From Eledone cirrhosa (taxonomy: Eukaryota): DNA of 64,000 nt. The notes below the pieces were generated by a model. The model was not told the DNA's origin and ran no database searches. It saw nothing but the letters and a program-made list of their open reading frames with translations. Positions within the stretch are counted from its first letter, which is position 1. Every line of letters begins with the position of its first letter. Made by a program: the position numbers and the translations under genes. The stretch is from assembly GCA_964016885.1 (NCBI GenBank), contig OZ024742.1, positions 128,216,001-128,280,000 on the forward strand. The letters run 5' to 3'. Positions 9,636 through 60,111 of the stretch are shown here, in pieces.

Positions 9636-9775
9636 TTAGGCATTTGTGCCTTCAAATGGTACCACTCGGTTAGTTCTGTCTTTCAGATATTTTCCTAATG
9701 CCACACCAACAATAGCAAGTATAATAACACCAATCACACTGCCAACAATTGCTCCAATGAAAGAACTAGCTTGTA
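9636..9775 (-). CDS. Terminal coding exon: single TM helix, 18-aa cytoplasmic tail and stop
   Basis: ttttatttttcag|TACAA..., phase 1. Translates (V)QASSFIGAIVGSVIGVIILAIVGVALGKYLKDRTNRVVPFEGTNA*, with TAA at 9638-9636. Confidence 0.88.
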
Positions 9776-10071
9776 CTGAAAATAAAAAGAGATACATCAG
9801 TTAAAATCAATATATTCAATAGCACTCAAGTATTTTATTCATAATTATATAAATAACATTACAAATCGTTTATAATTCTTACAGAATAAAAATATAATCA
9901 CAAATAATATATACAATACTTAATTACATAAATATTTCACATTAAAATTTAAAATCAAAACAAAAGAAAATATATTATAATCCTGATGTTCCACATAAAA
10001 ATAGTTATCTATGAAAATATTTAAGAGACAGGAAAAAAAAACGATTGAAAAAATATAAAATATTTTTTTAC

Positions 10072-10092
10072 CTCCAGAACTTTTTTCAATAG
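10072..10092 (-). CDS. 21-nt microexon in the stalk between GPS and TM
   Basis: ttcattctttccttcag|CTATTGAAAAAAGTTCTGGAG|gtaaaa. Symmetric phase 1, encodes (S)IEKSSG. Confidence 0.7.
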
Positions 10093-10559
10093 CTGAAGGA
10101 AAGAATGAAAGAATGAAAAAATGGTATAATTAATATTGTTTTTAATTAATTAATGTGTGTGTGCATTTGTGTTTGTGTGTGTGCATTTGTGTTTGTGTGT
10201 GTGCATGTATGTATGTTTGTGTACATGTATGTGTGTGTGTGTGTGTGTGCATGTATGTGTGGGTACATGTTTGTAAGTTTGTGTACATGTGTGTGTGTGT
10301 TTGTGTACGTGTGTATGTTTATGTGTTTGTGTGTTGAGCATGTGTGGGTGTGTACATGTTGCTTGCATATGAACCTCAATGGTAATGTAGAACATAAGTG
10401 TTAGGATTTAGGGCAAGGGGAATTAACTCTGAATAGAGAAGCGATGGTGTGGTATATAGTGATGGTGAGAATAGCTATTATGGGAGCAGGGGTGCAGTAA
10501 TAGTGAGGATAGCTGGTAAGGGATGATAGCAGGGAGCAGATGGATGATAATTGGATGGA

Positions 10560-11105
10560 TCTGGTCATGGCTTAAGGTTGGTAGACGGGTTTTCCCCAGC
10601 ACAGTATATTGCCAGTCCTCATGTTCTTTTGTCATCTTTGTTGTGTGATTTAGCTTCTTAAGGTCATCCCTCACTACCTCATCCCATATCTTCCTGGGTC
10701 AGTCACTTCTGAGTGTTCCATCCACAGAGATTTCTCAGCACTTCTTTATATAGTTGTTATCTTCCATACTCATCACATTTCCATATCATTGCAATCATCT
10801 CTCTAAGGCACTACATCAAATTCTTCTTAATCCAATTTTTTCTTTTAGTTTGCTTATGCTACATCGTTCATGCACATTAACATCACACATCCACTGGAGC
10901 ATGTGCGCTTCATGTCTTGTTAGCTCTCACAAGTCTTCTGCAGTCAGAGCCCATGTTTCACTTCCATGTACCATTGTAGTTCACATGCATATGTCATACA
11001 GTCTACCATTTACTCAAAGAGAGAAGCTCTTTGTTGTCAGTAGAGGTACCAACTCCTTAAACTTCTTCCAGCCTGTTCTTACCCAGGCTGTCATTCTTTC
11101 AACAC
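10560..11105 (-). mobile_element. Degraded RTE 3' fragment
   Basis: Similar to the 48168-49022 copy (WKKFKELVPLLT, HGSETW, GxPRKxW remnants). Confidence 0.75.
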
Positions 11106-12116
11106 ATTGAGCTTCCAATCATCTTGTCTAGTCAAAACTAAGTGGATATCTTTATTTATAAATCTTCGTATGTATATATATATGTATGCAAAAGGAAAAC
11201 AAAAATAACAAAGCAAATGAAGCAGTACAATGAAGAAATATATTACTTTTACGCTTGATATAGTAGGAAAAGAGTCTTCACTAATCGATGTGCTAGCTAG
11301 CAATAAAAGTAAAAAGTAAAAGTGGAAAAGCATAGGAGTATATCTAAAGATTCTTTTTTTTTTTTTCTTTAATCTGGAAGAATAAATATTTTTATAATTG
11401 TTACATTAAATGAATTTAAGTTTTGTCAAGTATTACCAGTTTTGATTGGTGTGCTAATCTTATCAAATATTTAAGAAACTTGTTCTTATATTCTGGGGGC
11501 AGTTTTATAGGAATGCTTTCTCAAAATGTGTATATATTTAGGTGGGGTACCATTGTGTCAAGAGTTCAAGTTTATTTTCAGGATTTGTATATATATATAT
11601 ATGAACAAGAAGGGATTGAGATTCTTGAGCCAAAATCTGGTCAGGACCTGGGAATTGACATGAGCAATGATGCAGTGGAGATGTGCTGACAACTGAGGGC
11701 AAGAGACTGGGAAGCCATGTTGGTCCTAGATTTTGTCTCCCCACAGTGTCAAATTAAGTGGTGCAGAACATGAAGCAATCCAACGAAGCTGCACCAAGAA
11801 AATTGCCTTATTGAAAGAGTTGAGCTACTGGGAGAGGCTGAAAGAACATAAATGTAAAGAAATATATATATATATATAGGCATGATATAAATATATATTA
11901 TATATATAGCAAAGAAAGTATGGTGGACCATAATGCACCAGAGTACTTGATACTTAGGGTAGTAGAGTGGGTAATAGGAAAAGAGTCAAGACCCCGACGG
12001 CTGAGCTCCAGCCTTTTCGACAGCTAGATCCAAACTAAGCCAGCTAGCTTAGTTCAGATCTAGCTGTCGAAACGGCCGGAGCTCAGCTGTCGGGGTCCTG
12101 ACTCTTTTCCTATTAT

Positions 12117-12199
<83 letters not shown>

Positions 12200-13721
12200 T
12201 GCATATAATGGTTTCTGATTTAGGCACAAGGCCAACAACAATTTTGGGGGAGAGGAAAAACGATTAAATCGTCCCCAGTGCATTACTGGTGCTTTATGTT
12301 ATTGACCCTGAAAGGATGAAAGGCAACGCTAACTTTGGCGAGATTTAAACCCAGAAGGTAAAGGGCCATAACTATATGCTGCAAAGCATGTTGTCCGACG
12401 CTCTACCGATACTGCCAATCTACTGCCCATTAGAACATATAATAGACTTACGAGCATTTTGCTGGACTAACCAGGAATGAAATAAAGTTCAACTCACCAG
12501 AGACTAATTAAATTAAAATAATTTCCCTGAAATGTTTTAATATGCTAGTGGAAGAAATGTTCTGACTTAGTAAGTTGTATGGAAGATGGCTTATATTTAG
12601 ATGATACTCTAGATACCTTTAGAGATTTTACTAATTCTGAGCTTGAGCCAGTTAGAAAACACTTATAAAAAACTATAACTTAAGTATATATATATATTTA
12701 TATATATATATATGGACATTACACACACAATGGACTTTACACACACACACAAAACGCACATACACAGTATATACATTGAAACTTACATTTCACACTAACA
12801 AATCCACTACCACATACCATACGGATATACGCATACACACAAGTTTAAACTTAGACATACACTCACACATAATATTGACACTAATACACTCATACTTCAC
12901 TTTGCGTTCTAACTCATTGCCAAAACTACCTAACTGTTTGTCTTATTTACACTCATTATTTACGATTTTTTTCTTTACTTGAACCTCCTTTATTTCTCTT
13001 TCTCCTTTGTGATCCTGTCTTTATTTTGTACTCCTGCAGAAGGGCTTAAGTTCGACAAATTGAACTTTTTTTCCCTTTGTCCATATAAAGTGTGAAACTA
13101 ATAAGACTTTTTGTACCTCTGTTGTCTCCTTGAACTATATATTCATATATATATACATACATACATACATACACACATGCACACACACATATATATATAT
13201 ATATATATAATTACCAATAGATAATTGTTTCTGCTTTTGGCACAAGGTCAGCAATTATCCCAGTGCATTACTAGTACTTTATTTTATCAACCCCGTAAGG
13301 ATGAAAGGCAAAGTTAACTTCGGCGGGATTTGAACTCAGACCGTAAAGGGACGTAACTATGCTGGAAAGCATGGCGTCCGATCTTCTACCGAGATAATGA
13401 CCAATAGATAGTTGCCTTTATATGCTCCTTTTGCTGATACTATAAGGCTGTTTATTCTATTAGTCGCATGTTTTATATCAAAGTGACCTTCTCCTAGAGA
13501 GATGTCTTAATGAAGTATAGGAGTCTCTCATTCCACAACTCCCCTCCCCCCAACATTTTATTGGATGGCTGTTGACTCTCCTGCCTTTTGACGGGTTTTG
13601 TTTTTCATCCTGCAGGATGTCCAGAATCACCCCCTCACCAAACATGCTTGGTGGGGTTGCCAGTTTAGTTGCTGATAACCTGACCATGTACAATTTGTAC
13701 TGGGTTACATGTTACCAGTAA

Positions 13722-15370: not shown

Positions 15371-15583
15371 ATGATTCACTTCCAATTTGGTACAATGATA
15401 AATGATTTGTTTCACACTGCACAAAGGAGCCACTTTCATTTACTTTCGCTGCACCTAACACCTTCCATGTAGACTGGTCAAAGTCCCATGTGAAGCATTT
15501 ATATTTTTTACTTGTGGATATTGTATCAAGTTTTATTTCAATCGTTATTGGATTAGCCAGGCTCGAAACTTTCTCCAAGAATC
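15371..15583 (-). CDS. Exon encoding the GPS motif of the GAIN domain
   Basis: gaaaag|GA...TCAT|gtaagt, 213 nt, phase 1 to 1. Translates FLEKVSSLANPITIEIKL...KCFTWDFDQSTWKVLGAAKVNESGSFVQCETNHLSLYQIGSES, with the C-x-x-W...W...C-x-x-x-HLS GPS signature. Confidence 0.92.
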
Positions 15584-15937: not shown

Positions 15938-18900
15938 ACCAGTTTCTATAGTGTTCTATATCTGATAGTAGTGTAGGATATAACAGTTTTTATAGATCTA
16001 TGATAGTGGTGTAGGATATAACAGTTTCTATAGTGTTCTATATCTCATAGTAGTGTAGGATATAACAGTTTCTATGGAGTTCTGATAGTGGTGTAGGATA
16101 TAACAGTTTCTATAGAGTTCTGATAGTGGTGTAGGATATAACAGTTTCTATAGTGTTCTGATAGTAGTGTAGGATACAACAGTTTCTATAGTGTTGTATA
16201 TCTGGTAGTGGTGTAGGATATAACAGTTTCTATAGAGTTCTATATCTGATAGTGGTGTAGGATATAACAGTTTCTGTAGTATTCTGATAGTAGTGTAGGA
16301 TACAACAGTTTCTATAGTGTTGTATATCTGGTAGTGGTGTAGGATATAACAGTTTCTATAGAGTTCTATATCTGATAGTGGTGTAGGATATAACAGTTTC
16401 TGTAGTGTTCTATATCTGATAGTAGTGTAGGGTATAACAGTTTCTGTAGTGTTCTGATAGTAGTGTAGGTTACAACAGTTTCTATAGTGTTGTATATCTG
16501 GTAGTGGTGTAGGATATAACAGTTTCTGTAGTGTTCTATATCTGATAGTGGTGTAGGATATAACAGTTTCTGTAGTGTTCTATATCTGATAGTGGTGTAG
16601 GATATAACAGTTTCTGTAGTGTTCTATATCTGATAGCAGTGTAGGATATAACAGTTTCTATAGTGTTCTATATCTGATAGTGGTGTAGGATATAACAGTT
16701 TCTATAGTGTTCTGATAGTAGTGTAGGATATAACAGTTTCTATAGTGTTCTGATAGTGATGTAGGATATAACAGTTTCTATAGTGTTCTATATCTTATAG
16801 TAGTGTAGGATATAACAGTTTCTATAGAGTTCTAATAGTGGTGTAAGATATAACAGTTTCTACAGTGTTATATATCTCATAGTAGTGTAGGATATAACAG
16901 TTTCTATAGTGTTCTATATCTGAGAGTGGTGTAGGATATAACAGTTTCTGTAGTGTTCTATATCTGATAGAGGTGTAGGATATAACAGTTTCTATAGTGT
17001 TCTATATCTGATAGTAGTGTAGGATATAACAGTTTCTGTAGTGTTCTGATAGTAGTGTAAGCTTAACAGTTTTTATAGTGTTCTATATCAGAAAGTGGTG
17101 TAGGATATAACAGTTTCTATAGTGTTCTATATCTGATACTAGTGTAGGTTATAACAGTTTCTATAGTGTTCTATATCAAATAGTGGTGTAGGATATAACA
17201 GTTTCTATAGTGTTCTATATCAAATAGTGGTGTAGGGTATAACAGTTTCTCTAGTGTTCTATATCTGGTAGCAGTGTCGGATATAACAGTTTCTGTAGTT
17301 TTCTATATCTTATAGTAGTGTAGGAAATAACAGTTTCTATAGTGTTCTGATAGTGGTGTAGGATATAACAGTTTCTATAGTGTTCTGATAGTAGTGTAGG
17401 ATACAACAGTTTCTATAGTGTTGTATATCTGGTAGTGGTGTAGGATATAACAGTTTCTATAGAGTTCTATATCTGATAGTGGTGTAGGATATAACAGTTT
17501 CTGTAGTATTCTGATAGTAGTGTAGGATACAACAGTTTCTATAGTGTTGTATATCTGGTAGTGGTGTAGGATATAACAGTTTCTATAGAGTTCTATATCT
17601 GATAGTGGTGTAGGATATAACAGTTTCTGTAGTGTTCTATATCTGATAGTAGTGTAGGGTATAACAGTTTCTGTAGTGTTCTGATAGTAGTGTAGGTTAC
17701 AACAGTTTCTATAGTGTTGTATATCTGGTAGTGGTGTAGGATATAACAGTTTCTGTAGTGTTCTATATCTGATAGTGGTGTAGGATATAACAGTTTCTGT
17801 AGTGTTCTATATCTGATAGTGGTGTAGGATATAACAGTTTCTGTAGTGTTCTATATCTGATAGCAGTGTAGGATATAACAGTTTCTATAGTGTTCTATAT
17901 CTGATAGTGGTGTAGGATATAACAGTTTCTATAGTGTTCTGATAGTAGTGTAGGATATAACAGTTTCTATAGTGTTCTGATAGTGATGTAGGATATAACA
18001 GTTTCTATAGTGTTCTATATCTTATAGTAGTGTAGGATATAACAGTTTCTATAGAGTTCTAATAGTGGTGTAAGATATAACAGTTTCTACAGTGTTATAT
18101 ATCTCATAGTAGTGTAGGATATAACAGTTTCTATAGTGTTCTATATCTGAGAGTGGTGTAGGATATAACAGTTTCTGTAGTGTTCTATATCTGATAGAGG
18201 TGTAGGATATAACAGTTTCTATAGTGTTCTATATCTGATAGTAGTGTAGGATATAACAGTTTCTGTAGTGTTCTGATAGTAGTGTAAGCTTAACAGTTTT
18301 TATAGTGTTCTATATCAGAAAGTGGTGTAGGATATAACAGTTTCTATAGTGTTCTATATCTGATACTAGTGTAGGTTATAACAGTTTCTATAGTGTTCTA
18401 TATCAAATAGTGGTGTAGGATATAACAGTTTCTATAGTGTTCTATATCAAATAGTGGTGTAGGGTATAACAGTTTCTCTAGTGTTCTATATCTGGTAGCA
18501 GTGTCGGATATAACAGTTTCTGTAGTTTTCTATATCTTATAGTAGTGTAGGAAATAACAGTTTCTATAGTGTTCTGATAGTGGTGTAGGATATAACAGTT
18601 TCTATAGTGTTCTGATAGTAGTGTAGGATATAACAGTTTCTATACTGTTTTGATAGTAGTGTCGGATATAACAGTTGCTATAGTGTTCTATAACTGATAG
18701 TGGTGTAAGATATAACAGTTTCTATAGTGTTCTGATAGTGGTATAAGATATAACAGTTTCTATAGTGTTCTATATCTGATATTAGTGAAGGATATAACAG
18801 TTTCTATAGTGTTCTATATCTGATAGTAGTGTATGATATAACAGTTTCTATAGTCTTCTAATACTGGTGTAAGATATAACAGTTTCTACAGTGTTCTATA

Positions 18901-21900
18901 TCTGATAGTAGTGTAGGGCATAACAGGTTCTAAAGTGTTCTGATAGTGGTGTAGGATATAACAGTTTCTATAGTGTTCTATATCAAATAGTGGTGTAGGG
19001 TATAACAGTTTCTATAGTGTTCTATATCTCATAGTAGTGTAATATATAACAGTTTCTGTAGTATTCTATATCTGATAGTAATGTAGGGTATAACAGTTTC
19101 TATAGTGTTCTATATCTAGATAGTAGTGTAGGATATAACAGTTTCTGTAGTGTTCTGATAGTGGTGTAAGAAATAACAGATTCTATAGCGTTCTATATCT
19201 GATAGTAGTGTAGGATATAACAGTTTTTATAGAGCTATGATAGTGGTGTAGGATATAACAGTTTCTATAGTGTTCTATATCTCATAGTAGTGTAGGATAT
19301 AACAATTTCTATGGAGTTCTGATAGTGGTGTAGGATATAACAGTTTCTATAGAGTTCTGATAGTGGTGAAAGATATAACAGTTTCTATAGTGTTCTATAT
19401 CTGATACTAGTGTAGGTTATAACAGTTTCTATAGTGTTCTATATCAAATAGTGGTGTAGGATATAACAGTTTCTATAGTGTTCTATATCAAATAGTGGTG
19501 TAGGGTATAACAGTTTCTCTAGTGTTCTATATCTGGTAGCCATGTCGGATATAACAGTTTCTGTAGTTTTCTATATCTTATAGTAGTGTAGGAAATAACA
19601 GTTTCTATAGTGTTCTGATAGTGGTGTAGGATATAACAGTTTCTATAGTGTTCTGATAGTAGTGTAGGATATAACAGTTTCTATACTGTTTTGATAGTAG
19701 TGTCGGATATAACAGTTGCTATAGTGTTCTATAACTGATAGTGGTGTAAGATATAACAGTTTCTATAGTGTTCTGATAGTGGTATAAGATATAACAGTTT
19801 CTATAGTGTTCTATATCTGATATTAGTGAAGGATATAACAGTTTCTATAGTGTTCTATATCTGATAGTAGTGTATGATATAACAGTTTCTATAGTCTTCT
19901 AATACTGGTGTAAGATATAACAGTTTCTACAGTGTTCTATATCTGATAGTAGTGTAGGGCATAACAGGTTCTAAAGTGTTCTGATAGTGGTGTAGGATAT
20001 AACAGTTTCTATAGTGTTCTATATCAAATAGTGGTGTAGGGTATAACAGTTTCTATAGTGTTCTATATCTCATAGTAGTGTAATATATAACAGTTTCTGT
20101 AGTATTCTATATCTGATAGTAATGTAGGGTATAACAGTTTCTATAGTGTTCTATATCTAGATAGTAGTGTAGGATATAACAGTTTCTGTAGTGTTCTGAT
20201 AGTGGTGTAAGAAATAACAGATTCTATAGCGTTCTATATCTGATAGTAGTGTAGGATATAACAGTTTTTATAGAGCTATGATAGTGGTGTAGGATATAAC
20301 AGTTTCTATAGTGTTCTATATCTCATAGTAGTGTAGGATATAACAATTTCTATGGAGTTCTGATAGTGGTGTAGGATATAACAGTTTCTATAGAGTTCTG
20401 ATAGTGGTGAAAGATATAACAGTTTCTATAGTGTTCTAATAGTGGTGTAGGATATAACAGTTTCTATAGTGTTCTGATAGTAGTGTAGGATACAACAGTT
20501 TCTATAGTGTTGTATATCTGGTAGTGGTGTAGGATATAACAGTTTCTATAGAGTTCTATATCTTATAGTGGTGAAGGATATAACAGTTTCTGTAGTGTTC
20601 TATATCTGATAGAGATGTAGGATATAACAGTTTCTATAGTGTTCTATATCTGATAGTGGTGTAGGATATAACAGTTTCTATAGTGTTCTATATCATATAG
20701 TGGTGTAGGATATAACAGCTTCTATAGTGTTCTATATCTGATAGTGGTGTAGGATATAACAGTTTTGTAGTGTTCTGATAGTAGTATAGGATATAACAGT
20801 TTCTATAGTGTTCTGATAGTGGTGTAGGATATAACAGTTTCTATAGTGTTCTATATCTAATAGTGGTGTAGGATATACTAGTTTCTGTAGTGTTCTGATA
20901 GTAGTGTAGGATATAACAGTTTCTGTAGTGTTCTGATAGTAGTGAAAGCTTAACAATTTCTATAGTGTTCTATATCTGATAGTGGTGTAGGATATAACAG
21001 TTTCTATAGTGTTCTATATCAAATAGTGGTGTAGTGTATAACAGTTTCTATAGTGTTCTATATCAAATAGTGGTGTAGGGTATGACAGTTTCTGTAGTGT
21101 TCTATATCTGAGAGTGGTGTAGGATATAACAGTTTCTCTAGTGTTCTATATCTGATAGCAGTGTCGGATATAACAGTTTCTATAGTGTTCTATATCTGAG
21201 AGTGGTGTAGGATATAACAGTTTCTATAGTGTTCTATATCAAATAGTGGTGTAGGATATAACAGTTTCTCTAGTGTTCTATATCTGATAGCAGTGTCGGA
21301 TATAACAGTTTCTATAGTGTTCTATATCTGATAGCAGTGTCGGATATAACAGTTTCTCTAGTGTTCTATATCTTATAGTAGTGTAGGAAATAACAGTTTC
21401 TATAGTGTTCTGATAGTGATGTAGGATATAACAGTTTCTATAGTGTTCTATATCTTATAGTAGTGTAGGATATAACAGTTTCTATAGAGTTCTAATAGTG
21501 GTGTAAGATATAACAGTTTCTACAGTGTTATATATCTCATAGTAGTGTAGGATATAACAGTTTCTATAGTGTTCTATATCTGATAGTAGTGTAGGTTACA
21601 ACAGTTTCTATAGTGTTGTATATCTGGTAGTGGTGTAGGATATAACAGTTTCTGTAGTGTTCTATATCTGATAGTGGTGTAGGATATAACAGTTTCTATA
21701 GTGTTCTATATCTGATAGTGGTGTAGGATATAACAGTTTCTATAGTGTTCTGATAGTAGTGTAGGATATAACAGTTTCTATAGTGTTCTGATAGTGATGT
21801 AGGATATAACAGTTTCTATAGTGTTCTATATCTTATAGTAGTGTATGATATAACAGTTTCTATAGTCTTATAATACTGGTGTAAGATATAACAGTTTCTA

Positions 21901-24900
21901 CAGTGTTCTATATCTGATAGTAGTGTAGGGCATAACATGTTCTAAAGTGTTCTGATAGTGGTGTAGGATATAACAGTTTCTATAGTGTTCTATATCAAAT
22001 AGTGGTGTAGGGTATAACAGTTTCTATAGTGTTCTATATCTCATAGTAGTGTAATATATAACAGTTTCTGTAGTATTCTATATCTGATAGTAATGTAGGG
22101 TATAACAGTTTCTATAGTGTTCTATATCTAGATAGTAGTGTAGGATATAACAGTTTCTGTAGTGTTCTGATAGTGGTGTAAGAAATAACAGATTCTATAG
22201 CGTTCTATATCTGATAGTAGTGTAGGATATAACAGTTTTTATAGAGCTATGATAGTGGTGTAGGATATAACAGTTTCTATAGTGTTCTATATCTCATAGT
22301 AGTGTAGGATATAACAATTTCTATGGAGTTCTGATAGTGGTGTAGGATATAACAGTTTCTATAGAGTTCTGATAGCGGTGAAAGATATAACAGTTTCTAT
22401 AGTGTTCTGATAGTAGTGTAGGATATAACAGTTTCTATAGTGTTCTGATAGTGATGTAGGATATAACAGTTTCTATAGTGTTCTATATCTTATAGTAGTG
22501 TAGGATATAACAGTTTCTATAGAGTTCTAATAGTGGTGTAAGATATAACAGTTTCTACAGTGTTATATATCTCATAGTAGTGTAGGATATAACAGTTTCT
22601 ATAGTGTTCTATATCTGAGAGTGGTGTAGGATATAACAGTTTCTGTAGTGTTCTATATCTGATAGAGGTGTAGGATATAACAGTTTCTATAGTGTTCTAT
22701 ATCTGATAGTAGTGTAGGATATAACAGTTTCTGTAGTGTTCTGATAGTAGTGTAAGCTTAACAGTTTTTATAGTGTTCTATATCAGAAAGTGGTGTAGGA
22801 TATAACAGTTTCTATAGTGTTCTATATCTGATACTAGTGTAGGTTATAACAGTTTCTATAGTGTTCTATATCAAATAGTGGTGTAGGATATAACAGTTTC
22901 TATAGTGTTCTATATCAAATAGTGGTGTAGGGTATAACAGTTTCTCTAGTGTTCTATATCTGGTAGCAGTGTCGGATATAACAGTTTCTGTAGTTTTCTA
23001 TATCTTATAGTAGTGTAGGAAATAACAGTTTCTATAGTGTTCTGATAGTGGTGTAGCATATAACAGTTTCTATAGTGTTCTGATAGTAGTGTAGGATATA
23101 ACAGTTTCTATATGTTTTGATAGTAGTGTCGGATATAACAGTTTCTATAGTGTTCTATATCTGATAGTAGTGTAGGTTACAACAGTTTCTATAGTGTTGT
23201 ATATCTGGTAGTGGTGTAGGATATAACAGTTTCTGTAGTGTTCTATATCTGATAGTGGTGTAGGATATAACAGTTTCTATAGTGTTCTATATCTGATAGT
23301 GGTGTAGGATATAACAGTTTCTATAGTGTTCTGATAGTAGTGTAGGATATAACAGTTTCTATAGTGTTCTGATAGTGATGTAGGATATAACAGTTTCTAT
23401 AGTGTTCTATATCTTATAGTAGTGTATGATATAACAGTTTCTATAGTCTTATAATACTGGTGTAAGATATAACAGTTTCTACAGTGTTCTATATCTGATA
23501 GTAGTGTAGGGCATAACATGTTCTAAAGTGTTCTGATAGTGGTGTAGGATATAACAGTTTCTATAGTGTTCTATATCAAATAGTGGTGTAGGGTATAACA
23601 GTTTCTATAGTGTTCTATATCTCATAGTAGTGTAATATATAACAGTTTCTGTAGTATTCTATATCTGATAGTAATGTAGGGTATAACAGTTTCTATAGTG
23701 TTCTATATCTAGATAGTAGTGTAGGATATAACAGTTTCTGTAGTGTTCTGATAGTGGTGTAAGAAATAACAGATTCTATAGCGTTCTATATCTGATAGTA
23801 GTGTAGGATATAACAGTTTTTATAGAGCTATGATAGTGGTGTAGGATATAACAGTTTCTATAGTGTTCTATATCTCATAGTAGTGTAGGATATAACAATT
23901 TCTATGGAGTTCTGATAGTGGTGTAGGATATAACAGTTTCTATAGAGTTCTGATAGCGGTGAAAGATATAACAGTTTCTATAGTGTTCTGATAGTAGTGT
24001 AGGATATAACAGTTTCTATAGTGTTCTGATAGTGATGTAGGATATAACAGTTTCTATAGTGTTCTATATCTTATAGTAGTGTAGGATACAACAGTTTCTA
24101 TAGAGTTCTAATAGTGGTGTAAGATATAACAGTTTCTACAGTGTTATATATCTCATAGTAGTGTAGGATATAACAGTTTCTATAGTGTTCTATATCTGAG
24201 AGTGGTGTAGGATATAACAGTTTCTGTAGTGTTCTATATCTGATAGAGGTGTAGGATATAACAGTTTCTATAGTGTTCTATATCTGATAGTAGTGTAGGA
24301 TATAACAGTTTCTGTAGTGTTCTGATAGTAGTGTAAGCTTAACAGTTTTTATAGTGTTCTATATCTGAGAGTGGTGTAGGATATAACAGTTTCTATAGTG
24401 TTCTATATCTGATAGTAGTGTAGGTTATAACAGTTTCTATAGTGTTCTATATCAAATAGTGGTGTAGGATATAACAGTTTCTATAGTGTTCTATATCAAA
24501 TAGTGGTGTAGGGTATAACAGTTTCTCTAGTGTTCTATATCTGGTAGCAGTGTCGGATATAACAGTTTCTGTAGTTTTCTATATCTTATAGTAGTGTAGG
24601 AAATAACAGTTTCTATAGTGTTCTGATAGTGGTGTAGCATATAACAGTTTCTATAGTGTTCTGATAGTAGTGTAGGATATAACAGTTTCTATATGTTTTG
24701 ATAGTAGTGTCGGATATAACAGTTGCTATAGTGTTCTATAACTGATAGTGGTGTAAGACATAACATTTTCTATAGTGTTCTGATAGTGGTATAAGATATA
24801 ACAGTTTCTATAGTGTTCTATATCTCATAGTAGTGTAGGATATAACAATTTCTATGGAGTTCTGATAGTGGTGTAGGATATAACAGTTTCTATAGAGTTC

Positions 24901-27900
24901 TGATAGCGGTGAAAGATATAACAGTTTCTATAGTGTTCTGATAGTAGTGTAGGATATAACAGTTTCTATAGTGTTCTGATAGTGATGTAGGATATAACAG
25001 TTTCTATAGTGTTCTATATCTTATAGTAGTGTAGGATATAACAGTTTCTATAGAGTTCTAATAGTGGTGTAAGATATAACAGTTTCTACAGTGTTATATA
25101 TCTCATAGTAGTGTAGGATATAACAGTTTCTATAGTGTTCTATATCTGAGAGTGGTGTAGGATATAACAGTTTCTGTAGTGTTCTATATCTGATAGAGGT
25201 GTAGGATATAACAGTTTCTATAGTGTTCTATATCTGATAGTAGTGTAGGATATAACAGTTTCTGTAGTGTTCTGATAGTAGTGTAAGCTTAACAGTTTTT
25301 ATAGTGTTCTATATCAGAAAGTGGTGTAGGATATAACAGTTTCTATAGTGTTCTATATCTGATACTAGTGTAGGTTATAACAGTTTCTATAGTGTTCTAT
25401 ATCAAATAGTGGTGTAGGATATAACAGTTTCTATAGTGTTCTATATCAAATAGTGGTGTAGGGTATAACAGTTTCTCTAGTGTTCTATATCTGGTAGCAG
25501 TGTCGGATATAACAGTTTCTGTAGTTTTCTATATCTTATAGTAGTGTAGGAAATAACAGTTTCTATAGTGTTCTGATAGTGGTGTAGCATATAACAGTTT
25601 CTATAGTGTTCTGATAGTAGTGTAGGATATAACAGTTTCTATATGTTTTGATAGTAGTGTCGGATATAACAGTTTCTATAGTGTTCTATATCTGATAGTA
25701 GTGTAGGTTACAACAGTTTCTATAGTGTTGTATATCTGGTAGTGGTGTAGGATATAACAGTTTCTGTAGTGTTCTATATCTGATAGTGGTGTAGGATATA
25801 ACAGTTTCTATAGTGTTCTATATCTGATAGTGGTGTAGGATATAACAGTTTCTATAGTGTTCTGATAGTAGTGTAGGATATAACAGTTTCTATAGTGTTC
25901 TGATAGTGATGTAGGATATAACAGTTTCTATAGTGTTCTATATCTTATAGTAGTGTATGATATAACAGTTTCTATAGTCTTATAATACTGGTGTAAGATA
26001 TAACAGTTTCTACAGTGTTCTATATCTGATAGTAGTGTAGGGCATAACATGTTCTAAAGTGTTCTGATAGTGGTGTAGGATATAACAGTTTCTATAGTGT
26101 TCTATATCAAATAGTGGTGTAGGGTATAACAGTTTCTATAGTGTTCTATATCTCATAGTAGTGTAATATATAACAGTTTCTGTAGTATTCTATATCTGAT
26201 AGTAATGTAGGGTATAACAGTTTCTATAGTGTTCTATATCTAGATAGTAGTGTAGGATATAACAGTTTCTGTAGTGTTCTGATAGTGGTGTAAGAAATAA
26301 CAGATTCTATAGCGTTCTATATCTGATAGTAGTGTAGGATATAACAGTTTTTATAGAGCTATGATAGTGGTGTAGGATATAACAGTTTCTATAGTGTTCT
26401 ATATCTCATAGTAGTGTAGGATATAACAATTTCTATGGAGTTCTGATAGTGGTGTAGGATATAACAGTTTCTATAGAGTTCTGATAGCGGTGAAAGATAT
26501 AACAGTTTCTATAGTGTTCTGATAGTAGTGTAGGATATAACAGTTTCTATAGTGTTCTGATAGTGATGTAGGATATAACAGTTTCTATAGTGTTCTATAT
26601 CTTATAGTAGTGTAGGATACAACAGTTTCTATAGAGTTCTAATAGTGGTGTAAGATATAACAGTTTCTACAGTGTTATATATCTCATAGTAGTGTAGGAT
26701 ATAACAGTTTCTATAGTGTTCTATATCTGAGAGTGGTGTAGGATATAACAGTTTCTGTAGTGTTCTATATCTGATAGAGGTGTAGGATATAACAGTTTCT
26801 ATAGTGTTCTATATCTGATAGTAGTGTAGGATATAACAGTTTCTGTAGTGTTCTGATAGTAGTGTAAGCTTAACAGTTTTTATAGTGTTCTATATCTGAG
26901 AGTGGTGTAGGATATAACAGTTTCTATAGTGTTCTATATCTGATAGTAGTGTAGGTTATAACAGTTTCTATAGTGTTCTATATCAAATAGTGGTGTAGGA
27001 TATAACAGTTTCTATAGTGTTCTATATCAAATAGTGGTGTAGGGTATAACAGTTTCTCTAGTGTTCTATATCTGGTAGCAGTGTCGGATATAACAGTTTC
27101 TGTAGTTTTCTATATCTTATAGTAGTGTAGGAAATAACAGTTTCTATAGTGTTCTGATAGTGGTGTAGCATATAACAGTTTCTATAGTGTTCTGATAGTA
27201 GTGTAGGATATAACAGTTTCTATATGTTTTGATAGTAGTGTCGGATATAACAGTTGCTATAGTGTTCTATAACTGATAGTGGTGTAAGACATAACATTTT
27301 CTATAGTGTTCTGATAGTGGTATAAGATATAACAGTTTCTATAGTGTTCTATATCTGATATTAGTGAAGGATATAACAGTTTCTATAGTGTTCTATATAT
27401 GATAGTAGTGTATGATATAACAGTTTCTATAGTCTTCTAATACTGGTGTAAGATATAACAGTTTCTACAGTGTTCTATATCTGATAGTAGTGTAGGGCAT
27501 AACATGTTCTAAAGTGTTCTGATAGTGGTGTAGGATATAACAGTTTCTATATTGTTCTATATCAAATAGTGGTGTAGGGTATAACAGTTTCTATAGTGTT
27601 CTAGATCTCATAGTAGTGTAATATATAACAGTTTCTGTAGTATTCTATATCTGATAGTAATGTAGGGTATAACAGTTTCTATAGTGTTCTATATCTAGAT
27701 AGTAGTGTAGGATATAACAGTTTCTGTAGTGTTCTGATAGTGGTGTAAGAAATAACAGATTCTATAGCGTTCTATATCTGATAGTAGTGTAGGATATAAC
27801 AGTTTTTATAGAGCTATAATAGTGGTGTAGGATATAACAGTTTCTATAGTGTTCTATATCTCATAGTAGTGTGGGATATAACAATTTCTATGGAGTTCTG

Positions 27901-30698: not shown

Positions 30699-30720
30699 TG
30701 ATATATTTAACAAACTTCAC

Positions 30721-30878
30721 CTGAATATGGATTATAGAACGAAATGTCCACCACATTAGAAGCGGCCTTGGTATTTGTGACGTTCAATGGAAACACATCA
30801 GTTGCCCCTATGAATTCGGATATTTGTACTATAACACCTTGACATTTGCTATTATCTTCACACGGCCAGTCAAAATAG
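30721..30878 (-). CDS. Exon of PKD1/REJ-like gene (GAIN subdomain B)
   Basis: Long polypyrimidine tract then cag|CTAT...TCAG|gtgaag, 158 nt, phase 2 to 1. Translates (S)YFDWPCEDNSKCQGVIVQISEFIGATDVFPLNVTNTKAASNVVDISFYNPYS(G). The SNVVDISF segment resembles the GAIN 'S.V.s.s' strand. Confidence 0.88.
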
Positions 30879-44386: not shown

Positions 44387-44422
<36 letters not shown>

Positions 44423-44428
<6 letters not shown>

Positions 44429-45268
44429 CCAATTTTCCACGCAATACTTTTAGTTAGAACCCCGAATGCATAATTGGGAATATAATCACTTATTTCCTAA
44501 TGTTTGTTGAGTGAGTTGGAATTTGGTCGGAGTATCGCTAAAAAGCTTTCTCCGATATTGTATTTATTTATTTACTCTTGGCGCAGCAGATTTGAAATTT
44601 TCCCGGTATAAGGTTAGGATTTCTTTGTTTATTTTTTTTTTTATATATGAATATTGATTGTTCCTTATATCTCATTCTGTTATTTTGCCCGAGAAAATAT
44701 CTGTGTGTGTCATCAAATGTTGTACACACAGATATTTTTTCAATTTCCAATTGAGTTCTTAGCACGTGGCCTGAATTCCTTTTAGAGTTCATTGTCATGC
44801 GCATGTATTGTTTTTTTTGGCGGTAATTTACTTCCTCATTTTTGAATCAGTTTGAGCATTTCTTTAGAACTGCTGGACTGGCAACCTGACAGATACCCCA
44901 GGCACAGATGATGATTATCGCTAAATACTGATGTTGGTTAGATTATCAATATTAGTATTATTGGGGCACCCACTGATGAATTATAGGAGCCCACTTGAAT
45001 ATATATCTATTGATGGTATACAAGCTCCTACATAAATTGGTATAATTTCACCCAAATTGTAGGAATCCTATAATGAAACGAGACGTCCGTCTGGGAAGAG
45101 ATATATTCGATATGTCTCATATGAAATAATACAGCCAATTTTCCATGCAATACTTTTAGTTAGAACCCCGAACGCATAATTGGGAATATAATCACTTATT
45201 TCCTAATGTTTGTTGAGTGAGTTGGAATTTGGCCGGAGTATCGCTAAAAAGCTTTCTCCAATATTGTA

Positions 45269-45336
<68 letters not shown>

Positions 45337-45408
45337 TACAATATTGGAGAAAGCTTTTTAGCGATACTCCGGCCAAATTCCAACTCACTCAACAAACATT
45401 AGGAAATA

Positions 45409-47287: not shown

Positions 47288-47628
47288 TATCAATAATATT
47301 AATAAATGGAAACTATCTTTATAAAACAATATTTATTCTAATATATATATTTCAAGGGTACCAACATTTTCTGGTACGCTCTAATCAGATAAAATACAAA
47401 AGTTGTTTTACAGATAGTGATATATTCAAGAATAAGAACTTATCGTTTTAAGTTCTGTTTGAATAGAACTTGAAACGATAAGGTCTTATTCTTGAATATA
47501 TCACTATCTGTAAAACAACTTTTGTATTTTATTTGATTAGAGCGTACCAGAAAATTTTGGTACCCTTGAAATATATATATTAGAATAAATATTGTTTTAT
47601 AAAGATAGTTTCCATTTATTAATATTAT

Positions 47629-48170: not shown

Positions 48171-49022
48171 TCATCATCATCATTTTACGTCCACTTTTCC
48201 CTGCTTGCAAGGGTGGGACGGGTCTTATTCAGCACAGCATCTCTCCACTCGTCACGGTCCCTCGTCATCTCCACCGTGAGCTTCAATGATCTGAGGTCTG
48301 TTCTCACTAACTCCGCCCATGTTTTTCGTGGTCTACCTCTACCACGTCTTCCTTCAACTGGCAATTCCTGGCACTTCTTCACCCGTCGGTCATCCTCCAT
48401 GCGCATCACATGTCCATACCACCTCAGTCTCCTCTCCCGTACACTACATTCTATCCCTCTCAGACACAGTTTCTCTCTCAACATATTTATGCTGGGTCGT
48501 TCACGCACATTTACACTGCACATCCAACGGAGCATGCTTGCCTCATTTCTCTCCAGCCGTCGCATATCCTCTGCAGTTGCTGCCCATGTCTCACTACCAT
48601 GCAGCATCGCGCTCCTCACACAGGCATCATACAACCGGCCTTTCGTACGCAGGGAGAAACCTTTCTTCGTCAACAGAGGAAGCAGCTCCCTAAACTTCTT
48701 CCAACCCGTCCTTATTCTAGATACTATGGCCTCGGAACACCCTCCTCCCATGCTAATCTGATCTCCTAGGTACCGGAAGCTATCCACCACTTCTATAGCG
48801 CCCTCTTGCATTTGAAAAATGTGTCTATCAGTGCGACTTCTACTGTCTAATTTCCCTGTACATCGACTCCATACATACTTCTCCCTACCTGTTAGTTTGC
48901 CTGCTATCCCGCTACATCTCTTGTGTACCCAGGATCTGCATTGTGTGCATTTTATAGAATTTATGCCAGTTCCTTTTCTGCATATCGAACATGGCCATTT
49001 CCCTGACTGAATCAGAGTTTTG
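48168..49022 (-). mobile_element. Young 5'-truncated RTE-clade LINE (PHD-like finger, post-RT region, 3' tail)
   Basis: Open frame of about 278 codons: GKWPCSICRKG..CTQCRSWVHKRC..EVVDSFRYLGD..LYDACVRSAMLHGSETW..RLRWYGHVMR..GRGRPRKTW, followed by a (GAT)n tail. Confidence 0.92.
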
Positions 49023-50346
49023 TTTTATGTGTACGCGGCTTGTGTGTGTGTCTGTATGTGATACAAGCCGCCCATCCGTCGTCCGTCTTCCAAGTTATGT
49101 TTTACGTGTACGCGGCTTGTGTGTGAGTCTGTATGTGATACAAGCTACCCATCCGTCGTCCGTCTTCCAAGTTATGTTTTACGTGTACGCGGTTTGTGTG
49201 TGTGTCTGTATGTGATACAAGCCGCCCATCCGTCGTCCGTCTTCCAAGTTATGTTTTACGTGTACGCGGTTTGTGTGTGTGTCTGTATGTGATACAAGCC
49301 GCCCATCCGTCGTCCGTCTTCCAAGTTATGTTTTACGTGTACGCGGTTTGTGTGTGTGTCTGTATGTGATACAAGCCGCCCATCCGTCGTCCGTCTTCCA
49401 AGTTATGTTTTACGTGTACGCGGTTTGTGTGTGTGTCTGTATGTGATACAAGCCGCCCATCCGTCGTCCGTCTTCCAAGTTATGTTTTACGTGTACGCGG
49501 TTTGTGTGTGTGTCTGTATGTGATACAAGCCGCCCATCCGTCGTCCGTCTTCCAAGTTATGTTTTACGTGTACGTGGTTTGTGTGTGTGTCTGTATGTGA
49601 TACAAGCTGCCCATCCGTCGTCCGTCTTCCAAGTTATGTTTTACGTGTACGCGGTTTGTGTGTGTGTCTGTATGTGATACAAGCCGCCCATCCGTCGTCC
49701 GTCTTCCAAGTTATGTTTTACGTGTACGCGGTTTGTGTGTGTGTCTGTATGTGATACAAGCTGCCCATCCGTCGTCCGTCTTCCAAGTTATGTTTTACGT
49801 GTACGTGGTTTGTGTGTGTGTCTGTATGTGATACAAGCTGCCCATCCGTCGTCCGTCTTCCAAGTTATGTTTTACGTGTACGTGGTTTGTGTGTGTGTGT
49901 GTCTGTATGTGATACAAGCTGCCCATCCGTCGTCCGTCTTCCAAGTTATGTTTTACGTGTACGTGGTTTGTGTGTGTGTCTGTATGTGATACAAGCTGCC
50001 CATCCGTCGTCCGTCTTCCAAGTTATGTTTTACGTGTACGCGGTTTGTGTGTGTGTCTGTATGTGATACAAGCCGCCCATCCGTCGTCCGTCTTCCAAGT
50101 TATGTTTTACGTGTACGCGGTTTGTGTGTGTGTCTGTATGTGATACAAGCTGCCCATCCGTCGTCCGTCTTCCAAGTTATGTTTTACGTGTACGCGGTTT
50201 GTGTGTGTGTCTGTATGTGATACAAGCCGCCCATCCGTCGTCCGTCTTCCAAGTCATGTTTTACGTGTACGCGGCTTGTGTGTGTGTCTGTATGTGATAC
50301 AAGCCGCCCATCCGTCGTCCGTCTTCCAAGTTATGTTTTACGTGTA
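49021..50346. repeat. 77-bp CpG-rich VNTR, about 17 copies
   Basis: Unit gttttacgtgtacgcggtttgtgtgtgtgtctgtatgtgatacaagccgcccatccgtcgtccgtcttccaagttat; copies are nearly identical. Confidence 0.95.
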
Positions 50347-55464: not shown

Positions 55465-55674
55465 TTTTTCGACAATTGACATAAAAACATTATTTGGCAT
55501 ACTTTGATTGTTTGACTTGAAGTTATTTACCAACTTCTCGAGATTATTAAGAAACTTTTGAATATAGGGGTCATCATATTGTTTCTTGTTTAATTTGTCG
55601 AGCGCTTGACTGAGAATCATAGTCTCATCTCTGGATAAGGGCTTCAATAAAGTAAGTTCCCAAATATCAATAGC
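55465..55674 (-). CDS. Exon of PKD1/REJ-like gene (helical region preceding the GAIN beta part)
   Basis: ttgacag|GCT...AAA|gtaagt, 210 nt, phase 0 to 0. Translates AIDIWELTLLKPLSRDETMILSQALDKLNKKQYDDPYIQKFLNNLEKLVNNFKSNNQSMPNNVFMSIVEK. Confidence 0.85.
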
Positions 55675-56963: not shown

Positions 56964-57061
56964 CTGGACTGATATTTCTTCCTGTGCAGATCTCTTTTTG
57001 CGAGCATTGTTTTGGATTTCAAGGATGCCAACCAATGACAACAGGGCATCAAAATAGTTTT
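56964..57061 (-). CDS. Exon of PKD1/REJ-like gene carrying an RKKR motif
   Basis: tttttcag|AAAAC...CCAG|gtacgt, 98 nt, phase 1 to 0. Translates (Q)NYFDALLSLVGILEIQNNARKKRSAQEEISVQ. Confidence 0.85.
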
Positions 57062-57086: not shown

Positions 57087-57131
<45 letters not shown>

Positions 57132-57258: not shown

Positions 57259-57301
<43 letters not shown>

Positions 57302-57761
57302 TGATGATGATCATCATCATCATCACTAGCATGGGTTAGACGGGAATTGTCCCATTTGAGGCAAGATTGGTCGGGTGACCGTGTCTCGCTCATATAGGAC
57401 TATATGGTAGGTTTTCTATGGCTGGATGCCCTTCTTAACACCAACCACCTTTACAGTGTGGACTGGGAACTTTTTATCGTGTTACCTACACAACCACATT
57501 ATAGTGTGGACTGTGTGTTTTTTGTCGTGACACCTACACAATCTCATTAGTGTAGACTGGATATTCTGTGGTACCAACATAACTTTACAGAGAGAGGATG
57601 GTGTTGGTGGGAGTGGGAGGGTAGAGTCGGGGTAGTGGGTTGGGGTGTATATTTGGTTAAGAGGTGTCTACTGACTGTAGGTTTCGCTTTGTACACAGGC
57701 AAGGCAGGTCTCCTGTATTACTGCGTGGCGCCAAAGATCTCGGTCCAGTGACATTGTCTTA

Positions 57762-58296
57762 GGGGCGACGTCCATACTCAAATTGCCACGCAAAACGTCA
57801 AAATGACGTTTTTTTTTTCTCGAGAAAAGATTGTGACGTTTTGCATATAATCATAAATTAAGAACTTTGACTCACCTCCAACACGCACCTGTCAACAGCC
57901 AACGTATTCTGTCATTTTATTTAGCCTTATGTGCCCCCTTCCCCTGAAATTTGTTTTGCCCCTCTTCCCCTCCTGAAACTTGCTTTAAATTCCATAAAAT
58001 TTGCTTTGCCCCCTATTTCTAAAAATTATTTGAGATAAATTAATTTATAAGCATTGTTCAACTTTATAGAGCTTTTTTTCACCATTGATAACATGTGTGT
58101 ATGTGTGTGTGATAACTTTTTATTGACAAAAGAAGACTGATTAACATCCCTAATTTTTAACCCTAAGTCAATTGAGGGTTTTTATGAGTGTTTTTCATCT
58201 TTGTCACGTTTTACATTTTCGGTACTGGGTTGGTGGGTCACGTCCAAAACGTCATTTTGACGTTTTGCGTGGTGATTTGAGTATGGACGTCTCCCC
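57762..58296. mobile_element. PIF/Harbinger-type MITE
   Basis: TIRs of about 50 bp (ggggcgacgtccatactcaaattgccacgcaaaacgtcaaaatgacgtttt and its reverse complement), flanked by a TTA duplication. Confidence 0.85.
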
Positions 58297-58939
58297 TTAG
58301 AGAGGTGCAAGTGTGTAAGGTCGGAATTTAGTGTGTGTGTATTGCAAAGGCTTGCTGAACACACAACATAAGCCAAAACTACTTGACATTGTTGGGATTA
58401 TCTTTCTTGCACCCCCCCCTCTCTCTCTCTATATATACAGCAGTATGCCCTTGATGCAAATGAAGAGTCCTCTCAAGCCTTTTTTTGGCAAGATTTTTAT
58501 GGCTGGATATTTATCTTATCCCCCCCCCCCCAACACACACATTAGAACGTGTAGTGGGTGCATTAGAGAGATTATCATATCATGACTGAAGGTGTTCTCT
58601 CGAAACACTTTGCTTAGTTTACATGGTTGGAAGTTCTTTCTAACACCAGTCACTATACAGAGTGTACTGGGTGTATTTTATTGTGGCACCAGGATTGGGA
58701 GCGATGCTGGTCATTGACTCAATTGAAGAGCCCACCCTACCCTCTGGGGAAGGATAGGATAGAGGATGCAGGTAGGAATGATGACAAGTGTGATACTATG
58801 GGTAAGGGACAATGGGTGGGGGAGGAAGACAGCCTAATGTTGTGGGTAGGGAGATGATAAGTATAAATTCATGGGTGTGAGACAGGTGTGGGGGGGGGGG
58901 GGTCGAAAAGAGGAAGGAGTGGGGAATGAAGACTCTATG

Positions 58940-59300
58940 AGTACCACTCACTGAGTTTTCTCTGCACCTCTTTATACAGTTGTTATCTTCAATATTCACC
59001 ACATGTTCATACCATGGCAGTCCCCCTTCTTGCACACCACATCATACTCCTACCATACAGAGACCTTCTCTCAGCTTACTCACACCCACTAGAACATACA
59101 TGCTCCACATTCCTCCTGCCCTCACAGGTCCTCTGCAGTCAAGGCCCATGTCTCAGAGTCATGTAGTATTGCCACTCACATGCAGGCATCACTCTGAGAG
59201 AGAAACTCCCCCATTGTCAGCAGAGGAATTAACTCCCTATTCTTACTTTGGCTACCACACTTTTAGAGCAGCCTCCTCCACTGCTGATTAGGTCACCTTG
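58940..59300 (-). mobile_element. Highly degraded RTE fragment
   Basis: WYEHVVNIEDNNCIKRC and a SETW-like remnant. Confidence 0.6.
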
Positions 59301-59981
59301 GCAACAAAAGCTGTCAGTCTCTAGGGAGCCTGCCAGGCAATTGAAGAAAACTAGTGCTCTAAGTGCTTATTTCTCCCAGGCATTTATCACATACAAAGTC
59401 TATCTTCTCTGTCATGAGAAATGCACCCAGGTGGCTGGTGATAGATAGAAGTGGTATTCTACTGTAGAAACTATGTTAAAAAGGTCGAGGGTTGAGAGGA
59501 CTCACCAGTTATGTCAAGGGCATGACATCCTCTTTAGTGTTGGTGATCTACACAACAAAGATACCCAGTACACTCTGTTAAGTGATTGATGATAGGAAGG
59601 TGGGTCTCATTTTGCACCTGCCAGATCCTCAGCATGAAAGGACTGCAATGTGAAGGAGACTGGGGAAGGGAAAGTGGAGAAGAGGCCAGCCGAAATATAC
59701 CTGGCAGCAAACTTTTCTAGAGAACCTAAGACACACAGGAATTAGTTGGACAGGATCAAGTAAAACTGTGGCAGTTTGATCATGATGGTGGATGCTTGTT
59801 GCTTTGTGTGCATCAACATGTGAGAAGACCTAAGATTAATATTAAGATAAGAACTCTGCCAATTCACTACCTTTTGTAGTACTAGCAAAGAAATACAAAC
59901 CATCAACATTCCTGTAGATAATCTTACAAATACAACCTGCTATGATTGTAAATGTTATGAGTTGAAAAACTGTCTACTTAC

Positions 59982-60111
59982 GTGTTTTCAGTAAGTCGTC
60001 AACATTGTTTAATATTTCCTCTTTTCTTTGTATCAATTGGGAAGGGCTGATGTTTTTAACAGTGATATTATTGCTGATAAATGCCCGACACATGCCATAA
60101 TTGTTACACAC
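59982..60111 (-). CDS. First visible exon of a PKD1/REJ-like GAIN(GPS) single-pass membrane protein (probable REJ C-terminal end)
   Basis: Acceptor atgaag|GTG, donor ACAC|gtaagt, 130 nt, phase 0 to 1. Translates VCNNYGMCRAFISNNITVKNISPSQLIQRKEEILNNVDDLLKT and joins the next exon in frame. The acceptor is the only AG downstream of an in-frame TGA. REJ assignment is by eye. Confidence 0.7.

What the first reader, a model, noticed from the sequence alone, without database searches (positions are those of the whole stretch)
9636..60111. Single-pass REJ/GAIN 'mini-polycystin': GPS, one TM and an 18-aa tail, with no 7TM, PLAT or channel
Seen: eight minus-strand exons join in consistent phases (1182 nt, 393 aa plus stop). 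The GPS site HL|S is followed about 22 aa later by one TM helix and then a stop. Known: GAIN domains normally precede the 7TM of adhesion GPCRs or the 11-TM polycystin-1 body, and single-TM REJ+GPS architecture is known from sea urchin sperm REJ1. Inference: this is a self-cleaving adhesion or sensor protein whose C-terminal fragment is only about 62 aa, so it would have to signal through a partner such as a PKD2/TRPP channel.
Basis: partly seen in the sequence, partly recalled or inferred. Interest (0 to 1): 0.75.

Follow-up and report, generated by a model that had tools for sequence, protein, structure and literature searches.

The report
Octopod single-pass REJ-GAIN surface protein
This is an intact octopod gene, with close relatives in Argonauta and Octopus, for a large cell-surface protein that has the outer part of polycystin-1 but one membrane helix and an 18-residue tail; it likely works as a self-cleaving, releasable tether or co-receptor on cilia or sperm tails, a design already known from sea-urchin REJ proteins.

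Summary
Observation confirmed: eight minus-strand exons, one a 21-nt microexon, give 1182 nt, 393 aa plus stop, with HL|S, one TM helix and an 18-aa tail. Argonauta and Octopus bimaculoides orthologues end the same way. Pfam REJ hits them. A low-confidence orthologue model has GAIN domains as its five best PDB matches. The next gene starts about 17 kb after the stop, with no PLAT match nearby; four 11-TM-type PKD1 loci lie elsewhere. Upstream exons give an inferred 1949-aa protein: signal peptide, mucin stalk, Cys repeats, REJ, GAIN. The design is known: sea-urchin SpREJ1, 8 and 9 have one TM (PMC1934368), and this scan noted it before in Naegleria and chytrids. New details: TM plus tail are 80-85% conserved against 54-56% for the ectodomain, with a glycine zipper and an RVxP ciliary-type motif. 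An RKKR furin-type site sits in the GAIN region. Two Octopus models swap the TM exon for a GPI-signal-like end, not found in this genome. The PKD2-partner idea is untested and not required.

The parts
59982..60111 (-). coding exon, 130 nt: end of REJ region and first helix of GAIN subdomain A. The gene continues upstream beyond base 64000 with 18 more candidate exons (window numbering continued: 72671-123647 beta-sandwich and REJ, orthologue-supported; 125312-150544 Cys-rich repeats and 207429-209685 signal peptide plus mucin stalk, joined by phase only)
   Evidence: (58% to Argonauta); upstream exons (L002-L021)
56964..57061 (-). coding exon, 98 nt
56988..57002 (-). RKKR|S furin-type site, the only R-x-K/R-R in the model; present in 4 of 4 octopod orthologue records; the cuttlefish record starts after it
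   Evidence: processing inferred
55465..55674 (-). coding exon, 210 nt, GAIN A helices
51687..51898 (-). coding exon, 212 nt, GAIN A to B; weak GTTCCT donor
30721..30878 (-). coding exon, 158 nt, GAIN B strands with a conserved Cys pair
15371..15583 (-). coding exon, 213 nt, whole GPS motif (C..W..W..C..HL|S, two Cys only)
15396..15404 (-). H-L|S predicted autoproteolysis site (cut between 15399 and 15398)
10072..10092 (-). 21-nt microexon, linker; in Octopus the TM and GPI-like ends diverge right after it
9636..9775 (-). last coding exon, 140 nt: TM helix, tail, TAA stop
   Evidence: (77% to Argonauta)
9693..9761 (-). single TM helix with GxxxGxxxG zipper at 9755-9729
9657..9668 (-). RVVP, matches the (K/R/Q)VxP ciliary-targeting motif; kept in 3 of 3 TM-tailed sequences
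   Evidence: function inferred
9620..9625 (-). AATAAA just after the stop; further AATAAA at 8937 and beyond

Best explanation
The gene encodes a single-pass REJ-GAIN surface protein that likely works as a releasable tether or accessory co-receptor on cilia, flagella or an apical surface, not as a receptor that signals alone. Shown: exon chain, REJ, GPS motif, one TM, 18-aa tail, orthologues with the same end, no downstream PLAT or channel exons. Predicted: GAIN fold and self-cleavage at HL|S, leaving a 62-aa anchor whose first strand stays bound in the GAIN domain and holds the ectodomain without a covalent link. Inferred: a mucin stalk, Cys repeats and extensible REJ modules reach out to a matrix, mucus, egg coat or neighbouring cell. 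Force or furin-type cutting at RKKR releases the ectodomain. The conserved TM helix (glycine zipper) clusters the protein or docks it to a partner, and RVxP sorts it to the ciliary membrane. Any signal passes through a partner bound by the ectodomain or the TM helix.
For: Gene and orthologues. Fold: the five Foldseek matches with E up to 0.001 are all GAIN structures (BAI3 twice, BAI2, CELSR1, GPR110); ten Atlas structure rows shown are all GPS/7TM clusters, TM 0.49-0.59; profile match to the ADGRF1 GPS, E 7.5e-5. H-L-S/T in 6 of 6. TM plus tail 39/46 identical to O. bimaculoides against 193/347 for the body (p 7e-5), and 36/45 against 188/346 for Argonauta (p 6e-4). RVVP is kept in 3 of 3, with about 2% chance per shuffled tail; the motif is defined in PMC3172256 (passages). 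Two Octopus species have a model with no cytoplasmic tail, which argues that anchoring, not tail signalling, is the core job. GAIN-1TM proteins acting through a partner are known: Cirl-1TM (bioRxiv 10.1101/2023.01.11.521585, abstract).
Against: No expression, localisation or cleavage data. The fold model is of the O. sinensis orthologue and weak (pLDDT 53, pTM 0.35, TM-scores about 0.3), and the wide VIA-align search listed no GAIN among 50 rows. The single-sequence model of the Argonauta protein failed (pLDDT 34). RVxP is four letters, and the three sequences are related, not independent. TM helices are often more conserved than ectodomains anyway. The first ~995 residues of the model have no homologue support. 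Strong tail conservation could equally mean a signalling adaptor binds there.
Confidence: 0.5

Rival explanations
1. Sperm or gamete-recognition receptor like SpREJ1: it sits on the sperm flagellum or acrosome, binds egg-coat or tract glycans and triggers Ca2+ entry through a separate channel.
For: Same REJ-GPS-1TM end as SpREJ1, whose antibodies raise Ca2+ and trigger the acrosome reaction (PMC1934368 Discussion). The ectodomain diverges fast: 269/351 between two Octopus species. RVxP fits a flagellum. This reading overlaps the best explanation.
Against: No C-type lectin or EGF family hit on the three Cys-rich exons scanned. SpREJ8 and 9, also single-TM, peak in embryos. No testis data.
Confidence: 0.2
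2. One reading: an accessory sensor subunit of a PKD2/TRPP channel or of a full-length PKD1-PKD2 complex, whose freed strand or TM helix gates the channel.
For: The genome has PKD_channel matches at five places, three of them next to REJ matches. It shares the ciliary motif type with polycystin-1 and -2. The TM helix is conserved with a glycine zipper.
Against: No coiled coil or channel helices, the parts that join polycystin-1 to -2 (recalled). At least four 11-TM-type PKD1 loci are there to fill that role. Tail-less Octopus models exist.
Confidence: 0.18
3. A shed mucin-type coat protein of skin, sucker, gut or egg case; the anchor serves only for delivery and the ectodomain is released constitutively.
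For: Candidate 690-aa Thr/Pro stalk and 33 N-glycosylation sequons. Conserved RKKR site. GPI-like alternative end in Octopus.
Against: The tail is highly conserved and carries RVxP. The mucin exon's link to the gene is inferred.
Confidence: 0.1
4. The stop at 9636 marks only a short isoform or a broken piece of a longer 11-TM polycystin.
For: No RNA seen. Cirl makes 1TM forms from a 7TM gene.
Against: Orthologue models end at the same place. An S1-domain gene starts about 17 kb downstream on the same strand. None of 14 PLAT and 8 PKD_channel matches lies near the locus. The canonical paralogue on C2 has its GPS split by an intron, this gene does not.
Confidence: 0.02

Closest known systems
Sea-urchin SpREJ1, SpREJ8, SpREJ9 (PKD1/REJ family; PMC1934368, abstract, Results and Discussion read)
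   Same: REJ domain, GPS before a single TM, no PLAT or channel. SpREJ9 also has a low-complexity Ser-rich region near its N-terminus.
   Different: No C-type lectin or EGF hit here. Thr/Pro stalk and DCxG Cys repeats instead (inferred). Orthology not tested: no SpREJ sequence was retrieved.
Argonauta hians GAB1608456.1, Octopus bimaculoides XP_014775389.1 / A0A0L8H652 (LOC106872793), O. sinensis XP_029657927.2, Sepia pharaonis CAE1266900.1
   Same: Orthologues, 58-64% identical for the first two; same RKKR, GPS, TM and tail. All are uncharacterised and lack the N-terminal part modelled here.
   Different: This species' tail is 4 aa shorter. Two Octopus records carry a GPI-signal-like end not found at this locus. 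The Sepia record is 30% identical and stops after the GPS exon.
Polycystin-1 and PKD1-like proteins
   Same: REJ-GAIN cassette, two-Cys GPS with H-L-T/S (polycystin-1 pattern recalled), (K/R/Q)VxP tail motif (PMC3172256 passages).
   Different: No PLAT, no 11 TM, no coiled coil, so no channel subunit and no in-cis target for the freed strand.
Adhesion GPCRs and Drosophila Cirl-1TM isoform (bioRxiv 10.1101/2023.01.11.521585, abstract)
   Same: GAIN fold; a GAIN domain on one helix that works through a partner.
   Different: Cirl-1TM is a splice form of a 7TM gene. This is a dedicated gene with no 7TM exons, and it has REJ.

Membership tests
PKD1/REJ family, broad sense (PMC1934368) | REJ domain | tested here: met
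   Pfam PF02010 E 3.9e-50 on the Argonauta orthologue and 2e-22 on O. bimaculoides; those residues map to exons from 115247 (window numbering continued) down to 59982. The spliced protein of this genome was not itself scanned.
PKD1/REJ family, broad sense (PMC1934368) | GPS motif just before the first TM | tested here: met
   PF01825 E 0.0083 on the window's exon, under the curated cut-off; ADGRF1 GPS E 7.5e-5; H-L-S/T in 6 of 6; TM about 20 aa after the cut.
GAIN-domain proteins | helical subdomain A plus beta-sandwich B ending in the GPS strand | tested here: met
   Orthologue model shows helices then strands; 5 of 5 Foldseek hits at E up to 0.001 are GAIN; Atlas structure rows TM 0.49-0.59. 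Model confidence is low and VIA-align was uninformative.
GAIN-domain proteins | autoproteolysis at H-L|T/S | not testable with these tools
   Consensus residues present; needs expression and blotting.
Canonical polycystin-1 (11 TM) | PLAT domain after TM1 | tested here: not met
   Stop 18 aa after the TM; none of 14 PLAT matches near the locus; next gene about 17 kb away.
Canonical polycystin-1 (11 TM) | 11 TM with channel domain and C-terminal coiled coil | tested here: not met
   One hydropathy peak; none of 8 PKD_channel matches near the locus.
Adhesion GPCR | 7TM domain after GAIN | tested here: not met
   One TM then stop in this gene and in 2 of 2 TM-tailed orthologues.
SpREJ1-type sperm receptor | C-type lectin and EGF domains | tested here: inconclusive
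   No Pfam hit on three Cys-rich exons of 34-66 aa; the 5' model is incomplete and unverified.
SpREJ1-type sperm receptor | testis-specific expression, sperm surface | not testable with these tools
   No RNA run was listed for this DNA.
GPI-anchored proteins (Octopus alternative form only) | small-residue omega site, spacer, terminal hydrophobic stretch, no cytoplasmic tail | tested here: inconclusive
   Pattern seen by eye and by hydropathy in P0003 and P0023; no GPI predictor was available; a matching exon was not found in this genome.

The most novel reading that the evidence does not exclude
Cephalopods keep a dedicated ciliary REJ-GAIN gene that switches between a TM anchor with an RVxP tail and a GPI anchor. 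In the GPI form the cleaved C-terminal piece would be little more than the GAIN strand on a lipid: a natural GAIN domain used purely as a force-release buckle with no signalling part. That would isolate the mechanical job of GAIN from tethered agonism.
Probability: 0.15. Interest if true: 0.65.

Novelty: new member of a known kind. Interest (0 to 1): 0.33.

Why it matters
The single-pass REJ-GAIN design is known, so the architecture alone is no surprise. The gene is still a clean natural case of a GAIN domain without a 7TM or channel, conserved across octopods and not found in the literature searches made. It could test what GAIN cleavage and release do apart from tethered agonism. The TM versus GPI-like switch in Octopus is the most original lead. 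It lies in public models of other species, not in this window.

Tried and rejected
Homologue search with the GPS exon, longer proteins: none of 6 candidates scored. Alignment search for proteins of 1676-4785 aa: none of 7984, so no full-length orthologue and no non-cephalopod mollusc relative was found; weak evidence. Of the 16 phmmer hits, 6 with one matched stretch were followed. The other 10 were multi-stretch matches to short segments and were dropped unread as likely repeat matches. RNA: no RNA holder listed; the contigs laid showed no joints and did not cover the microexon, which says nothing on splicing. Single-sequence fold of the Argonauta protein unusable. VIA-align wide search returned only generic helical matches. 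GPI-like exon in this genome: best score 33 among 773 candidate frames against 28-50 for shuffled queries; read-through of the microexon donor scored 20; sliding search best 44. Not found. Candidate exons 51281-51201, 53607-53257, 47742-47443 and 44180-43998 rejected: no orthologue match. The REJ locus on C2 was checked as a possible single-pass paralogue and is a canonical PLAT/multi-TM gene. No second copy of this gene in the genome (lower bounds). A TM homodimer prediction was not run, so self-association is untested. Literature: 10 searches; none listed a paper on this gene, and LOC106872793 gave 0 papers. Supplements of cephalopod transcriptome papers were not seen and may list it.
Full report
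Observation. The window is G000:C3:128216001-128280000 in a 3.0-Gb genome. A splice-site scan and reading of the sequence gave eight minus-strand exons: 60111-59982, 57061-56964, 55674-55465, 51898-51687, 30878-30721, 15583-15371, 10092-10072 and 9775-9636. Joined in a script they give 1182 nt, 393 residues and one stop, with GT-AG at all 7 introns. HL|S is at residues 330-332 and 62 residues follow the cut: about 20 of linker, a 23-residue helix and an 18-residue tail.

Orthologues. phmmer with the GPS exon against 1.84 billion representatives gave 16 hits at E up to 0.001. I followed the 6 with a single matched stretch and dropped 10 multi-stretch hits unread. Three of the six are named cephalopod proteins: Argonauta hians GAB1608456.1, Octopus sinensis XP_029657927.2 and Sepia pharaonis CAE1266900.1. 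A second search added two O. bimaculoides records. The Argonauta protein hits 7 of the 8 window exons in order, and 11 more beyond the window (one only at E 0.17). It and O. bimaculoides XP_014775389.1 end in the same TM helix and tail. The window's protein is 58.6% identical to the latter end to end. Here a TAA cuts four residues that both orthologues keep; three of them are still encoded behind the stop. Contigs of one sample agree with the exon. The host is thus an octopod, by inference from identity. These are gene models; I saw no transcript.

Domains. Pfam REJ hits the Argonauta protein at E 3.9e-50 and the O. bimaculoides one at 2e-22. GPS scores stay under the curated cut-off (E 0.0083 for the window's exon). 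A profile of five orthologue records matches the GPS of ADGRF1 at E 7.5e-5. H-L-S/T is present in 6 of 6 sequences. An AlphaFold model of the O. sinensis protein on a 12-row alignment is weak (pLDDT 53) but shows helices followed by a beta-sandwich. All five Foldseek matches at E up to 0.001 are GAIN structures, with TM-scores near 0.3. The Atlas's own model of the O. bimaculoides protein matches GPS/7TM clusters at TM 0.49-0.59 in the ten rows shown. VIA-align listed only generic helical proteins, and the single-sequence model failed. The GAIN assignment is good but rests on low-confidence models.

No hidden continuation. On the same strand an S1-domain, zinc-knuckle gene begins about 17 kb after the stop (exons from about -7800 in window numbering; S1 E 1.4e-4). 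The name ZCCHC17 for it, and FKBP15 for the gene beyond, are recalled. None of 14 PLAT and 8 PKD_channel matches lies near the locus. REJ matches lie beside channel matches on C4, C10 and C15. A fourth locus on C2 reads as REJ, GPS, TM, PLAT-like and multi-TM exons, and its GPS is split by an intron, unlike here. So full-length PKD1-like genes exist separately, and this gene does not look like a recent stub of the one examined.

The 5' part. In 200 kb upstream I found 18 more exons in consistent phase (window numbering continued: 72671 to 209685), giving 26 exons and 1949 residues with no internal stop. In order: a signal-peptide-like start, about 690 residues with 52% Thr, Cys-rich DCxG and DxCGxC repeats, beta-rich modules, REJ, GAIN. 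Orthologue records cover only residues 998-1949. The first seven exons are joined by phase alone, the first across 57 kb, and exons may be missing. Pfam names none of three Cys-rich exons scanned.

(1) The TM and tail are far more conserved than the body: 39/46 against 193/347 with O. bimaculoides and 36/45 against 188/346 with Argonauta. (2) The helix has GxxxGxxxG in 3 of 3. (3) The tail has RVVP in 3 of 3, about 2% by shuffling; (K/R/Q)VxP is the ciliary signal of polycystin-1 and -2 (PMC3172256, passages). (4) RKKR|S is the only furin-type site and is kept in 4 of 4 octopod records. (5) O. bimaculoides has two models identical to residue 605. One has the TM exon. The other ends in small residues, a spacer, a hydrophobic stretch and six more residues, like a GPI signal. 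O. sinensis has the same end, 31/34 identical against 269/351 for the body (p 0.03), a modest sign of selection. No such exon was found in this genome. The GPI reading is by pattern only.

Mechanism. Most likely (0.5) the protein is a releasable tether or accessory co-receptor. GAIN cleavage (GAIN is sufficient for it in adhesion GPCRs: PMC3321182, passages) would leave the ectodomain held by one strand on a short anchor. Force or furin-type cutting would free it. The helix would cluster or dock it and RVxP would sort it to cilia or flagella. Rivals: SpREJ1-like sperm receptor (0.2), PKD2 accessory subunit (0.18), shed mucin coat (0.1), fragment of a longer gene (0.02). The PKD2 idea is possible but not forced. 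The parts that join polycystin-1 to -2 are absent (recalled), and tail-less forms are annotated in Octopus.

Known systems and novelty. SpREJ1, 8 and 9 are REJ-GPS proteins with one TM, and SpREJ9 has Ser-rich stretches (PMC1934368, abstract, Results, Discussion). Cirl-1TM shows a GAIN-1TM protein working through a 7TM partner (bioRxiv 10.1101/2023.01.11.521585, abstract and outline; PMC13197933, passages). PMC4890752 (passages) describes a coral multi-pass REJ protein and adds little. Earlier notes of this scan report single-pass REJ-GAIN proteins in Naegleria and chytrids (unchecked), and none on this gene. Ten paper searches found nothing on this gene; supplements were not seen. Verdict: a real gene, a new member of a known kind, interest 0.33. 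The boldest open reading is the TM/GPI switch (probability 0.15, interest 0.65 if true).

Noticed in passing
window 9638-9624 (minus): The TAA stop replaces a Q or R codon of the orthologues and is followed by N-T-A and a second stop that match their ends: a lineage-specific loss of four tail residues that spares RVxP.
   Followed up: partly
window 10071-9923 (minus): Read-through of the microexon donor stays open for 49 codons with a hydrophobic stretch; no similarity to the Octopus alternative end (score 20). Probably just AT-rich intron.
   Followed up: yes
window 15940-30705, 36174-43928, 49016-50346: Intronic satellites: 44/82-bp units over 14.8 kb, a 12-bp unit times 647 that gives spurious open frames of up to 2161 codons, and a 77-bp unit times 17.
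   Followed up: partly
window about 47300-47620 and 44400-45400: Long near-perfect inverted duplications seen by eye (arms of about 170 bases in the first); natural fold-backs or assembly artefacts.
   Followed up: no
L022-L024 (window numbering -7800 to -27740) and L034-L041: Next genes on the same strand: an S1 plus zinc-knuckle gene (ZCCHC17-like, name recalled) and an FKBP15-like gene (name recalled).
   Followed up: partly
L049-L059 (G000:C2:49793286-49895443, plus): A canonical PKD1-like gene with REJ, split GPS, TM, PLAT-like and multi-TM exons; neither the PLAT nor the PKD_channel genome search listed it, so those counts are lower bounds.
   Followed up: partly
window 33238-34600, 48889-49006, 58600-60480, 61982-62428, 63592-63999: Fragments of retrotransposon-type open frames in introns, repeated many times in the flanks.
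   Followed up: no
protein P0010 (unnamed ENA record): A GPS motif followed by several hydrophobic helices; matches this gene only over the GPS region.
   Followed up: no
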